Below, piece by piece: positions 3,001 through 6,000 of a stretch of DNA of 64,000 nucleotides. Position 1 is the first letter of the stretch, and each line of letters starts with the position of its first letter. The position numbers are program-made. The DNA comes from Escherichia coli (GTDB lineage: Bacteria > Pseudomonadota > Gammaproteobacteria > Enterobacterales > Enterobacteriaceae): assembly GCF_003018235.1 (NCBI RefSeq), contig NZ_CP027437.1; one strand, given 5' to 3'.

Positions 3001-6000
3001 ATTTTCCAGTCACCATCACGTATCGCCCATTCGTCGGTTGGATCATCCTGGAATGGCATGTCAATTCCGAAGATTAATGGCTTTTCACGTTTTAGCGCCT
3101 TGTTCTCAAGGACAGGAACCAACGATTCGCCATCAAAAGTCCGGTCCGTCGGTAATTTGAAGTTCATCATTTTCGCTAAAGTAGGCATCCAGTCCAGACC
3201 ATAAACGGGTGTATCTGAAACCATTCCCTGTGGTAGATGTTTACCATATTTAATAATCGCTGGAACACGAATTCCGCCTTCCCAAAGGTTATCCTTGCGA
3301 CCGCGTAATCCATCCGTTTCCCCTGCCAAATTCAGCTCATACACTTTGCGCGCTTCACGCGTTACCGGACCGTTATCACTGGTAAAAATAACAATGGTGT
3401 TATCTTCTTCACCCATCGCTTTGATTTTATCCAGCACTTTTCCAACCTGTGCATCCAGATAGCTGATATTGGCATAATATTCCCCCACACCACGCCAGGG
3501 TTTGTCTGCCCAGTCGCCATAAAATAAATCAGGATGCTGCTTCTGATACGCGCTCATATATTGTGAGTACATATCGAGGTATTTTTTGGGCGAAGCCAGG
3601 GGGCTATGCACTTCGGTAAAAGCGACATAGAGGAAGAAAGGCTTGCTGTCCTTTTTGTTATCCAGCCAGTTGACGACTTCCGAACTGACATACTCACCGC
3701 TCATTTTATCGGCTCGTGGAGTGGGTTGCCCATTACGCAACCAACCCGTCGGATACACCATGCCAAAACGGGGACGCTCCTTCGCATTATCCAGAGTAGC
3801 GTCGGTAACAAAACCCGCCGTATTAACCAGTGAGTAATCAAAGCCCATATCTTTTGCCTGCGGCTGATCGGTGCGATCGCCGCCTGCATTCAGATGCAGC
3901 TTACCCATCATGGCCGTGTCGTACCCTTGCGCTTTGAGTAGATTAGCAATCGTGAGTTCATTACGCCCTAATGCCACATCTTTTCCCGTTGGGATCCATG
4001 AGCGTATGCCGGTACGAAATGGCATCCGCCCTGTTAATAGTCCCGCCCGTGAAGGAGAACTTAAGGGGGCAGGTGCATAATAGTCGGTAAATTTGACGCC
4101 TTCCTGGGCAAGCCTGTCTATATTGGGCGTTTTAACGATCTGATGTCCATATGTTGCTAAATCACCATAGCCTAAATCATCCGCCATAATGATGACTAAA
4201 TTGGGTTGTTTAGTTTCGGCGGCTACGGCTGGATTAAAAGCATTCCCTGTGCAAACTGCAAGGCCGATCAAACTGGCCATTAATGTTTTCTGCATAATTA
4301 TTCCTTGATGAAAATTAGAAATCATAACCAAGCATATAAATCATTTGATCGCCAAAACCATCGTAGCCTAACTTATTATCGAAATAACGCCACGTCACAC
4401 TGGCTTTCCAGCGAGGATAGAACTTCCAGGCAACTGTTAAACCGCCATTTAACCCATTCCGACCAAATTGTTGTTCCGCATAGGCATCATTTCTGTCCAG
4501 TTCTATTTCATTCCAGTTAGATAAAACAAATTTTTCGTCAAATAACGTAAAAGGTAATACTGCTGTCCAGCCAACAACATAACCATTCCAGCCATTTGTT
4601 TGTCCATATTTGGCTGAGACGTAGTCTCCAGATTGATTATGTAATCCAATATACGGTTTAAAAACCCCCCATGAACCATTCCAGCCGAGGTAGCCCAAAC
4701 CATAAAACATATCAAGATCGTCACCCCATGAGTTATCCCATTGACCATAGATCTTGCCAAAGAAAGTCATATTGGAGTCAAAAAGTCTGACATGTGTCAT
4801 AGCAGAAACGGTATGATTACGCCCCGCTACGGCATGGTTAAGCACATTGCTTTCATAAAATGAGTAAAACTCGGCTTCTTTAAAATTCACACCAAAGTCC
4901 GCAGTCACTTTCCATACTTCACCACGATGAGTGTTAACGAAGCCACTATTCCAGTCAGCATAACCTGCATTTATTGAGCCAAAGGAACCTTTATATTCTA
5001 ATGAAGAATATGCAGGAAGGTGATAGAAAATCGTTGTCAGGGCACACGCAATAAGAAGCCGTCTTTTGGCAGACATATAATATGCTCTCCATTCATTGTT
5101 TTTATGGTTCCATAGAAATCAATACATCAGATAATTCATTTTGATTAAGAACGACTCAGAAAGTATATTTAAAGGTGAATGGCAAAGCGTGATGGAGATC
5201 GCAGATTACTTTTACCCCCGGGTGTGGAGGTATCGTGTTTCAAAAAGTGTGTCTATTTTAAATATCACTCATTGATTTATAGACATTTTTTCCTTATAAA
5301 AAAACACTAAATTCTGTACAAGAATTATTTTGTATCTTCTACTACTTTCTCCAGTAATAACTCACCTTTCAGGCATAACTTAAATCTGCTTGTTCATAAT
5401 CTCAATTTTTGTAAATGAAAAGGCACATAAGAGTTAAAATAAACAATGATCTAAAGATTAATTACGCAAAAATGCGAGGCGTCTTCAAGATTAGAATCGA
5501 TAAAACAGAATGGGTTAAAGAGAGCGATATAATAGCGGCGGGTGCTTGAGGCTGTCTGTCTCAGGCATTAGCTGAACGGCAGATAGAGAAAAGCCCCGAG
5601 TGATATTTTACTATCAACCCGAGGCCCCCTATATGCTGAACACATGTAGAGTGCCTCTTACTGACCGTAAGGTCAAGGAGAAGAGAGCAATGAAGCAGCA
5701 TAAGGCGATGATTGTCGCCCTGATCGTCATCTGTATCACCGCCGTAGTGGCGGCGCTGGTAACGAGAAAAGACCTCTGTGAGGTTCACATCCGAACTGGC
5801 CAGACGGAGGTTGCTGTTTTCACGGCTTACGAATCCGAGTAAGAGCAACGGCGGGGAGTGATCCCCGCCACTTTTCAGGTGCTCGCATATCTTCAACGCA
5901 CCCTAATTTTACCCAAGCCTGCCCACGGGCAGGCTTTTGGGGAGGTTAGCGGGTCAGGTCGTCAAAAAACTTCTTCACACCATCAAAGAAGCTCTTTGAG

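What the first reader, a model, noticed from the sequence alone, without database searches (positions are those of the whole stretch)
5560..5900. hokC/mokC toxin locus without a nearby IS, followed directly by the accessory island
HokC is encoded intact and the overlapping mokC frame is open. No IS186-like sequence lies between hokC and dnaJ; I recall K-12 carrying one there, which is thought to inactivate the locus. The locus may therefore be a functional type I toxin-antitoxin system, and it marks the boundary of the sulfatase island.
Basis: partly seen in the sequence, partly recalled or inferred. Interest (0 to 1): 0.35.

Follow-up and report, generated by a model that had tools for sequence, protein, structure and literature searches.

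The report
Intact, IS-free hokC/sokC toxin locus
This is the ordinary, uninterrupted form of the well-known E. coli hokC/mokC/sokC toxin-antitoxin locus, found in about 70% of sequenced E. coli; K-12's IS186-disrupted copy is the minority form.

Summary
hokC (5690-5842) and the in-frame mokC (5633-5842) are open, and their DNA is identical to K-12's. Only 103 bp separate hokC from dnaJ, with no IS. In K-12, IS186 sits inside the GC hairpin at 5850-5869 and cuts off the downstream fold-back element. Here every element of a hok/sok cassette is present. Predicted folds give the canonical switch: the full-length mRNA is closed by 5'/3' end pairing, and the 3'-trimmed mRNA reopens. The end pairing is predicted in all 21 homologues from six genera and shows compensatory changes. 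None of this is new. 3814 of 5426 complete E. coli genomes have the same IS-free junction. The adjacent sulfatase/OmpK island (1417-5459) is in 1271 of them, and the region's hokC and sulfatase modules were described in 2014. "Functional" needs a caveat: a 2026 preprint reports that the IS-free hokC tested in 1999 (strain ECOR24) neither stabilised plasmids nor responded to rifampicin. So the locus is structurally intact and probably regulated, but killing at native expression is unproven. Already known; low interest.

The parts
5528..5533 (+). hokC promoter -10 box, TATAAT, 7 nt upstream of the mRNA start. The -35 is poor, so this is a weak promoter as expected for hok.
   Evidence: Read from the sequence. 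The box is conserved as TATAAT/TATATT in homologues. The promoter assignment is inferred.
5540..5941 (+). Full-length hokC mRNA. The 5' end is set by the Rfam model and family alignment. The 3' end is inferred, either just after fbi (about 5903) or at the terminator (about 5939).
   Evidence: Rfam RF01794 covers 5540-5692. The 402-nt MFE is -169.9 kcal/mol, z=-6.0 against shuffles.
5540..5551 (+). tac, the translational activator element at the 5' end: GGGUGCUUGAGG.
   Evidence: Pairs with 5891-5903 in the full-length fold with probability 0.94-1.0. Pairs with 5591-5597 in the 3'-trimmed fold.
5591..5597 (+). ucb, the upstream complementary box: AAGCCCC.
   Evidence: Pairs with the mokC SD in the full-length fold and with tac in the trimmed fold. 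The flanking pair covaries, A-U 10 versus G-C 10.
5583..5641 (-). SokC antisense RNA (59 nt), mapped from the K-12 sokC annotation. It has a single-stranded 5' tail over the mokC start, then a stem-loop and a U-tract.
   Evidence: K-12 ncRNA b4413 maps here. Fold -23.6 kcal/mol, z=-5.6. It differs from K-12 at two positions, 5612 and 5627.
5648..5676 (-). sokC promoter: -35 TTGACC (5676-5671), 17-nt spacer, -10 CACTCT (5653-5648).
   Evidence: Read from the sequence at the right distance from the annotated SokC 5' end. Identical to K-12 across this stretch. Activity was not tested.
5621..5624 (+). mokC Shine-Dalgarno sequence, GAGG.
   Evidence: Paired to ucb in the full-length fold and to dcb in the trimmed fold.
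5633..5842 (+). mokC ORF (69 aa), in frame with hokC and sharing its stop codon.
   Evidence: K-12 annotation b0018.
5653..5657 (+). dcb, the downstream complementary box: GCCUC.
   Evidence: Pairs with the mokC SD (GAGGC, 5621-5625) in the trimmed-mRNA fold. These pairs are almost invariant in 21 homologues.
5690..5842 (+). hokC ORF, a 50-aa Hok/Gef membrane toxin, preceded by the SD AAGGAG at 5675-5680.
   Evidence: Pfam PF01848, 84.2 bits. DNA identical to K-12 hokC.
5828..5831 (+). TACG motif at Tyr47, the TadA A-to-I editing site that recodes Tyr to Cys.
   Evidence: Motif read from the sequence. Editing of hokC is reported in PMC5630033 and PMC12214031. TACGAA is kept in 19 of 21 homologues, and the other two hard-code Cys.
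5850..5869 (+). GC-rich 3' hairpin, GGCGGGGAGTGATCCCCGCC. It is the likely stop for 3' trimming and is the IS186 insertion target in K-12-like strains.
   Evidence: Folds. IS186 junctions in K-12 and E275a.
5891..5903 (+). fbi, the fold-back inhibitory element: CUUCAACGCACCC.
   Evidence: 12 bp with tac plus one bulge. Compensatory U-A to C-G change across homologues. It lies downstream of the IS186 site, so K-12 loses it.
5917..5939 (.). Terminator hairpin GCCTGCC-CACG-GGCAGGC followed by TTTTG, shared between the convergent hokC and dnaJ genes.
   Evidence: Sequence and fold. A role as a bidirectional terminator is inferred.
1417..5459 (-). Accessory island with three genes: a 426-aa hypothetical protein, a sulfatase and an OmpK/Tsx-like porin. 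It replaces about 112 bp of unrelated sequence in K-12 and O157:H7.
   Evidence: Boundaries from blastn. Pfam hits. Present in 1271 of 5426 genomes. A 'putative cerebroside sulfatase' module in this region is described in PMC4182557.

Best explanation
This is the uninterrupted chromosomal hokC/mokC/sokC locus, a canonical hok/sok-family type I toxin-antitoxin cassette with every regulatory part in place. The proposed mechanism follows plasmid R1 hok/sok, and each step is marked as shown or inferred. A weak promoter (-10 at 5528) makes an mRNA of about 360-400 nt (inferred). In the full-length RNA the 5' end (tac, 5540-5551) pairs with fbi (5891-5903), and ucb (5591-5597) covers the mokC ribosome-binding site, so the RNA is neither translated nor bound by antisense (pairings shown by prediction and covariation; consequences inferred). 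Slow 3' trimming back to the GC hairpin (5850-5869) removes fbi (inferred). The RNA then refolds: tac pairs with ucb, and the mokC SD pairs with dcb (shown by prediction). This form can be translated or bound by SokC. SokC (5583-5641, minus strand) pairs over the mokC start and leads to mRNA decay (inferred from family knowledge). If SokC is lost, mokC is translated and, by coupling, the 50-aa HokC membrane toxin is made (inferred). HokC potency is probably raised by TadA editing of Tyr47 to Cys (from the literature). Whether the native locus ever kills or arrests cells is not established.
For: The ORFs are intact and the coding DNA is identical to K-12. Pfam HOK_GEF E=4.6e-24 and Rfam RF01794 at 121.5 bits. 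The full-length MFE shows a 12-bp tac/fbi helix with pair probabilities of 0.94-1.0, and the whole RNA has z=-6.0. The trimmed RNA switches to tac/ucb plus SDmok/dcb. All 21 homologues, from Escherichia, Pseudocitrobacter, Kluyvera, Citrobacter, Photorhabdus and an R1-like plasmid, are predicted to form tac/fbi, and 12 of 21 show the same switch. Compensatory changes occur at tac position 4 against fbi (UA 13, CG 6) and at the ucb/SD flank (AU 10, GC 10); 91% of cells are paired versus 37-49% when partners are slid. Against an ST131 strain, the transcript differs at 6 of 364 positions. The flanks differ at 14 of 70 and 6 of 42, and dnaJ third codon positions at 5.6%. SokC folds into a stem-loop with a U-tail, and its promoter is identical to K-12's.
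Against: The IS-free ECOR24 hokC reportedly did not mediate post-segregational killing and was not rifampicin-activated (bioRxiv 10.1101/2025.08.07.668861, summarising Pedersen & Gerdes 1999). That primary paper was not available to me. Loss of the locus is tolerated: about 30% of genomes have the 3' region broken at 5865, where both loci examined (K-12 and E275a) carry IS186, and 135 genomes carry a Q3* nonsense allele. The sokC -10 (CACTCT) is weak by consensus. All structures are predictions. The mRNA ends, the trimming site and SokC expression were not measured for this strain.
Confidence: 0.85

Rival explanations
1. Intact in sequence but physiologically silent. The cassette is transcribed and regulated, yet it never yields enough active HokC at native levels to affect the cell. 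On this view it is a tolerated relic, not a working toxin-antitoxin system.
For: ECOR24 hokC reportedly gave no post-segregational killing and no rifampicin activation (bioRxiv 10.1101/2025.08.07.668861). hokC editing to the Cys form was only 9% in K-12 (PMC12214031). About 30% of genomes are broken at the IS186 target site, and 2.5% carry a Q3* nonsense allele, without obvious cost.
Against: The transcript is much more conserved than its flanks or dnaJ synonymous sites. RNA pairings are kept by compensatory changes across genera. Both argue for ongoing purifying selection on the regulated RNA, which a pure relic would not show. HokC is toxic when overexpressed (same preprint; PMC8509063).
Confidence: 0.3
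2. The locus is disabled in this particular strain by one of its point differences from K-12 or other strains: 5488, 5508, 5612, 5627, 5875, 5906 or 5916.
For: Seven single-base differences from K-12 exist in and around the locus. Positions 5612 and 5627 lie inside the SokC/target region. T5875 was seen only in this window among the five strains aligned.
Against: C5627 is present in all four other E. coli strains aligned and in E. albertii, so K-12 is the odd one. T5612 is shared with strain GF60. Changes in a cis-antisense pair stay complementary. T5875 also occurs in strain E275a, and CFSAN061769 is 100% identical over 5690-5960. None of the seven touches the start codons, the SDs, tac, ucb, dcb, fbi or the promoter hexamers. 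The predicted structural switch is unchanged.
Confidence: 0.04
3. The IS-free state here is secondary: IS186 was once present and was precisely excised, so it is not the ancestral arrangement.
For: IS186 hits this hairpin recurrently. K-12 and E275a carry it at the same site in opposite orientations.
Against: The hairpin is perfect, with no duplicated target or scar. The same uninterrupted hairpin is found in E. albertii and in homologues from other genera. 70% of E. coli genomes are IS-free.
Confidence: 0.03

Closest known systems
hokC (gef)/mokC (orf69)/sokC (sof) of E. coli K-12
   Same: Same chromosomal position between nhaA and dnaJ. The hokC/mokC coding DNA is identical. The leader, SokC region and sokC promoter are the same apart from two single-base differences.
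   Different: K-12 has IS186A inserted in the 3' hairpin (window 5850-5869). That separates fbi and the terminator from the mRNA; here they are contiguous. K-12 also lacks the 4-kb sulfatase island upstream.
IS-free hokC of E. coli ECOR24 (Pedersen & Gerdes 1999, known to me only through PMC3562002 and bioRxiv 10.1101/2025.08.07.668861)
   Same: IS-free hokC with its cis-encoded sokC antisense RNA. This is the allele type that was tested experimentally.
   Different: I could not obtain the ECOR24 sequence, so identity to this window is untested. ECOR24 hokC reportedly did not give post-segregational killing or rifampicin activation.
hok/mok/sok of plasmid R1 (parB)
   Same: Same order of parts: tac, ucb, mok SD and start, dcb, hok, GC hairpin followed by UUU(U/A)CAGG, then fbi. 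The predicted closed full-length fold is also the same.
   Different: This locus is chromosomal, not plasmid-borne, so it has no obvious plasmid-maintenance role. The Hok proteins are diverged, and the leader here is about 18 nt shorter (149-150 versus about 168 nt). mokC is in frame with hokC here. The mok frame varies in the family: in frame in 14 of 21 loci.
hokB/sokB of E. coli
   Same: A chromosomal hok-family member with TadA Tyr-to-Cys editing and a disulfide-dependent toxin (PMC5630033, PMC12214031).
   Different: hokB is edited at position 29 at 80-90%. hokC is edited at Tyr47 (alignment position 46) at about 9% in K-12. The persistence link through ppGpp was shown for hokB, not hokC.

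Membership tests
[quoted passage not shown] | Small hydrophobic Hok/Gef toxin ORF | tested here: met
   Pfam PF01848 HOK_GEF, 84.2 bits against a cut-off of 22. The 50-aa ORF has DNA identical to K-12 hokC.
[quoted passage not shown] | Upstream mok reading frame with its own SD, overlapping hok | tested here: met
   SD GAGG at 5621-5624 and ATG at 5633, open through to the hokC stop, 69 aa. Translational coupling itself was not testable.
[quoted passage not shown] | Cis-encoded antisense Sok RNA opposite the mok translation start, with a promoter and a terminator-like stem-loop | tested here: met
   Maps to K-12 sokC b4413. The stem-loop plus U-tail has z=-5.6. The promoter TTGACC-17-CACTCT is identical to K-12's. 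Expression was not testable.
[quoted passage not shown] | Long-range tac/fbi pairing of the mRNA 5' and 3' ends | tested here: met
   12 bp with probability 0.94-1.0. Predicted in all 21 homologues. Compensatory UA/CG change at tac position 4.
[quoted passage not shown] | Alternative pairings: ucb/SDmok in the closed form, then tac/ucb plus SDmok/dcb in the open form | tested here: met
   The MFE folds of the full-length and 3'-trimmed RNA switch exactly this way. The ucb/SD flank covaries. The open-form pairs are almost invariant, so covariation is uninformative for them.
[quoted passage not shown] | GC-rich 3' hairpin upstream of fbi that bounds 3' processing | tested here: met
   Hairpin at 5850-5869, conserved across homologues. 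The actual processing site was not testable.
[quoted passage not shown] | Cell killing or growth arrest when Sok is depleted (post-segregational killing, rifampicin induction) | not testable with these tools
   The literature reports a negative result for IS-free ECOR24 hokC (bioRxiv 10.1101/2025.08.07.668861). HokC is toxic on overexpression (same source; PMC8509063).
IS186-inactivated hokC (K-12 'gef' type) | IS186 inserted in the 3' hairpin between hokC and dnaJ | tested here: not met
   The junction is contiguous. The window belongs to the 3814 of 5426 genomes with an uninterrupted junction.
TadA-edited hok toxins | Tyr encoded by TAC within a TACG motif at the position aligned with a Cys in other Hok proteins | tested here: met
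   TACG at 5828-5831 is codon 47. The motif criterion comes from PMC5630033. Editing in this strain was not testable.

The most novel reading that the evidence does not exclude
The uninterrupted chromosomal hokC could be a working module with a real cellular role, for example stress-induced dormancy or abortive phage defence. In that case the repeated IS186 insertions into its conserved 3' hairpin (both orientations at one site), and the Q3* nonsense allele, would be selected inactivations, not neutral decay. A strain-level twist is that T5875 adds an A-U pair to a second, proximal fbi-like pairing of 5873-5884 with tac. That pairing could keep partly trimmed mRNA closed for longer.
Probability: 0.12. 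Interest if true: 0.4.

Novelty: already known. Interest (0 to 1): 0.1.

Why it matters
It matters little beyond correct annotation. The result is a reminder that K-12's IS186-disrupted hokC is the derived minority state, and that most E. coli carry a structurally complete cassette. The open question is whether chromosomal hok loci do anything at native expression. That question is long-standing, but this window adds no new handle on it. It only supplies one more intact allele that could be used in a SokC-depletion experiment.

Tried and rejected
1. I tried to read Pedersen & Gerdes 1999 (PubMed 10361310), but it is not held. Its conclusions are therefore taken second-hand from PMC3562002 and bioRxiv 10.1101/2025.08.07.668861.
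2. The generic promoter and terminator scan found neither the hokC nor the sokC promoter and gave no more hits than shuffled sequence. It was uninformative because both promoters have one weak hexamer.
3. The Rfam 'sok' model hits the hokC-sense strand. I use it only as evidence that the leader is homologous, not for the strand of SokC, which I took from the K-12 annotation.
4. I asked whether the 112-bp K-12/O157 sequence that replaces the island is a remnant of the island. No similarity beyond chance 8-10-mers was found, so whether the polymorphism arose by insertion or deletion is unresolved.
5. Covariation for the open-form helices (tac/ucb, SDmok/dcb) was no better than controls because those columns hardly vary. 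This neither supports nor contradicts them.
6. My script's in-frame TACG count was faulty and is not used. The motif was read from the sequence and from alignment A4 instead.
7. I considered the weak Rfam rpsL_pseudo hit at 5810-5935 (18 bits against a cut-off of 70, E=0.82) and rejected it as chance.

Full report
**What is there**

The window runs nhaA (4-1170, -), a 426-aa hypothetical gene (1428-2708, -), a sulfatase (2802-4331, -) and an OmpK/Tsx-like porin (4315-5076, -). Then come a 460-bp spacer, hokC (5690-5842, +), dnaJ (5946-7076, -) and dnaK (7165-9081, -).

hokC encodes the 50-aa peptide MKQHKAMIVALIVICITAVVAALVTRKDLCEVHIRTGQTEVAVFTAYESE. mokC starts at ATG 5633 in the same frame, giving 69 aa. 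Over the coding region the DNA is identical to K-12 MG1655. The product matches Pfam HOK_GEF (84 bits). The leader at 5540-5692 matches Rfam RF01794 at 121.5 bits, E=9e-29. These matches rule out a chance ORF.

**The IS186 point**

In K-12, IS186A (insL1) lies between dnaJ and hokC. Alignment places it inside the hairpin GGCGGGGAGTGATCCCCGCC (window 5850-5869), with the target duplicated on both sides. In this window the hairpin is perfect, and the hokC and dnaJ stop codons are 103 bp apart.

The IS-free state is not unusual. Of 5426 complete E. coli genomes, 3814 (70%) have the uninterrupted hokC-dnaJ junction, and nearly all the others break at window position 5865. One non-K-12 strain (E275a) carries IS186 at exactly the same site but in the opposite orientation to K-12. 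The hairpin is therefore a recurrent IS186 target. The same uninterrupted hairpin is present in E. albertii and in homologues from other genera, so IS-free is the ancestral state.

**Anatomy and predicted mechanism**

All parts known from plasmid R1 hok/sok can be placed:
- a perfect -10 box, TATAAT, at 5528-5533
- the mRNA start at 5540
- tac at 5540-5551
- ucb at 5591-5597
- the mokC SD at 5621-5624 and start at 5633
- dcb at 5653-5657
- the hokC SD at 5675-5680
- the 3' hairpin at 5850-5869
- fbi at 5891-5903
- a terminator shared with dnaJ at 5917-5939

SokC, mapped from the K-12 annotation, is the reverse complement of 5583-5641. It folds into a stem-loop with a U-tail (-23.6 kcal/mol, z=-5.6). 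Its promoter, TTGACC-17-CACTCT, is identical to K-12's.

The full-length RNA folds with z=-6.0. Its 5' end pairs with 5891-5903 (12 bp, pair probabilities 0.94-1.0), while ucb covers the mokC SD. When the RNA is cut just after the hairpin, the fold switches to tac/ucb and SDmok/dcb. This is the closed-to-open switch described for R1 (PMC9841398). Because fbi lies downstream of 5865, the K-12 insertion removes it, consistent with the published view (PMC3562002).

**Comparative support**

A scan of one genome per species returned 24 loci related to HokC. I compared twenty of them plus an R1-like plasmid locus. In all 21 the predicted full-length fold has the tac/fbi helix (9-12 pairs). In 12 of them the trimmed RNA shows the same switch.

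On the alignment, tac position 4 and its fbi partner change together (U-A in 13, C-G in 6). So does the pair flanking ucb/SDmok (A-U in 10, G-C in 10). Overall 91% of cells are paired, against 37-49% when the 3' partners are slid by 1-3 columns. The open-form helices are almost invariant, so covariation is uninformative there.

Within E. coli, the transcript differs from an ST131 strain at 6 of 364 positions. The immediately flanking 70 bp and 42 bp differ at 14 and 6 positions, and dnaJ third codon positions differ at 5.6%. The transcribed RNA therefore looks constrained.

**Differences from K-12 and other strains**

Seven single-base differences from K-12 lie in or near the locus: 5488, 5508, 5612, 5627, 5875, 5906 and 5916. 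None touches a start codon, an SD, tac, ucb, dcb, fbi or a promoter hexamer.

At 5627, K-12 is the odd one out. T5612 is shared with GF60. T5875 was seen only in this window among the five strains aligned, but it occurs in E275a and in a strain that is 100% identical over 5690-5960. T5875 adds one A-U pair to a weaker, proximal fbi-like pairing (5873-5884 with tac) that appears only if the RNA ends at about 5885. I treat this as a curiosity.

**Why 'functional' needs care**

A recent survey (bioRxiv 10.1101/2025.08.07.668861) summarises Pedersen & Gerdes 1999. [quoted passage not shown] I could not read the primary paper.

HokC is toxic when overexpressed (same preprint; PMC8509063). hokC mRNA is edited by TadA at a TACG motif, recoding Tyr to Cys. 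The motif is present here at 5828-5831 (Tyr47). Editing was about 9% in K-12, and for HokB the equivalent editing strongly raises toxicity (PMC5630033, PMC12214031).

Loss of the locus is tolerated. About 30% of genomes are broken at the IS186 target site in the hairpin, and 135 genomes carry a Q3* nonsense allele, seen in an ST131 strain. The supported conclusion is that the cassette is structurally complete, conserved and probably regulated in the canonical way. Killing at native expression is unproven.

**The island**

Homology with K-12 and O157:H7 stops at 1416 and resumes at 5460. The intervening 4043 bp replaces about 112 bp of unrelated sequence in those strains. The island ends 80 bp upstream of the hokC mRNA start, outside the core promoter.

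It is present in 1271 of 5426 genomes, always once and always chromosomal, with identities from 87% (B2 strains) to 99.9%. Lescat et al. 2014 (PMC4182557) already describe hokC and 'putative cerebroside sulfatase' modules, along with nhaAR, in this region.

**Verdict**

The feature is a known locus in its common, ancestral configuration. Novelty: already known. Interest: low.

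Noticed in passing
window 5850-5869; L001 (K-12) and L031 (strain E275a): The hokC 3' hairpin GGCGGGGAGTGATCCCCGCC is a recurrent IS186 target. K-12 and E275a carry 100% identical IS186 copies at exactly the same site with the same target duplication, but in opposite orientations. This implies at least two independent insertions, or an inversion.
   Followed up: partly
L005 (ST131 strain 131), codon 3 of hokC, equivalent to window 5696-5698: A CAG-to-TAG nonsense mutation truncates both hokC and the in-frame mokC. The exact allele is present in 135 of 5426 complete E. coli genomes. Annotators then call a shorter 44-aa 'Hok/Gef family protein'.
   Followed up: partly
window 1428-2708 (-): The first island gene encodes a 426-aa protein with no Pfam match. 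Its N-terminus is Cys-rich. Some genomes annotate it as an 'IS1/IS1595 family N-terminal zinc-binding domain-containing protein'. Its function is unknown. It sits next to a sulfatase and an OmpK/Tsx-like porin.
   Followed up: partly
window 1417-5459 versus L005: The sulfatase island is only about 87% identical between this strain and B2/ST131 strains, while the adjacent dnaJ is about 98% identical. The island is therefore old and diverged, or was exchanged separately from its flanks.
   Followed up: no
window 5470-5539 versus L005: The 70 bp upstream of the hokC mRNA start differs at 14 positions between this strain and ST131, although the -10 TATAAT is kept and the transcript itself is nearly identical. 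The promoter-upstream region may differ in strength between lineages.
   Followed up: no
window 57173-58755 (+), 59552-62314 (-), 62776-63822 (-), 63835-63957 (-): Downstream of prfC (54115-55728) lies a cytolethal distending toxin A/C-domain gene (Pfam CDtoxinA, E=4e-42), followed by an adjacent ORF. Next come a phage tail-tip protein J-like gene, an IS3-type transposase (rve) and an isrC sRNA match (150 bits). This looks like a CDT-carrying prophage remnant.
   Followed up: partly
window 7077-7154 (-) and 20818-20937 (-): Rfam finds the tpke11 sRNA between dnaK and dnaJ and the threonine operon leader, both as expected for this chromosomal region.
   Followed up: no
L016 and L017 (Pseudocitrobacter hok homologues): These two homologues encode Cys (TGC) where HokC has the editable Tyr (TAC in TACG). 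This fits the published pattern that the second cysteine is either hard-coded or supplied by TadA editing.
   Followed up: no
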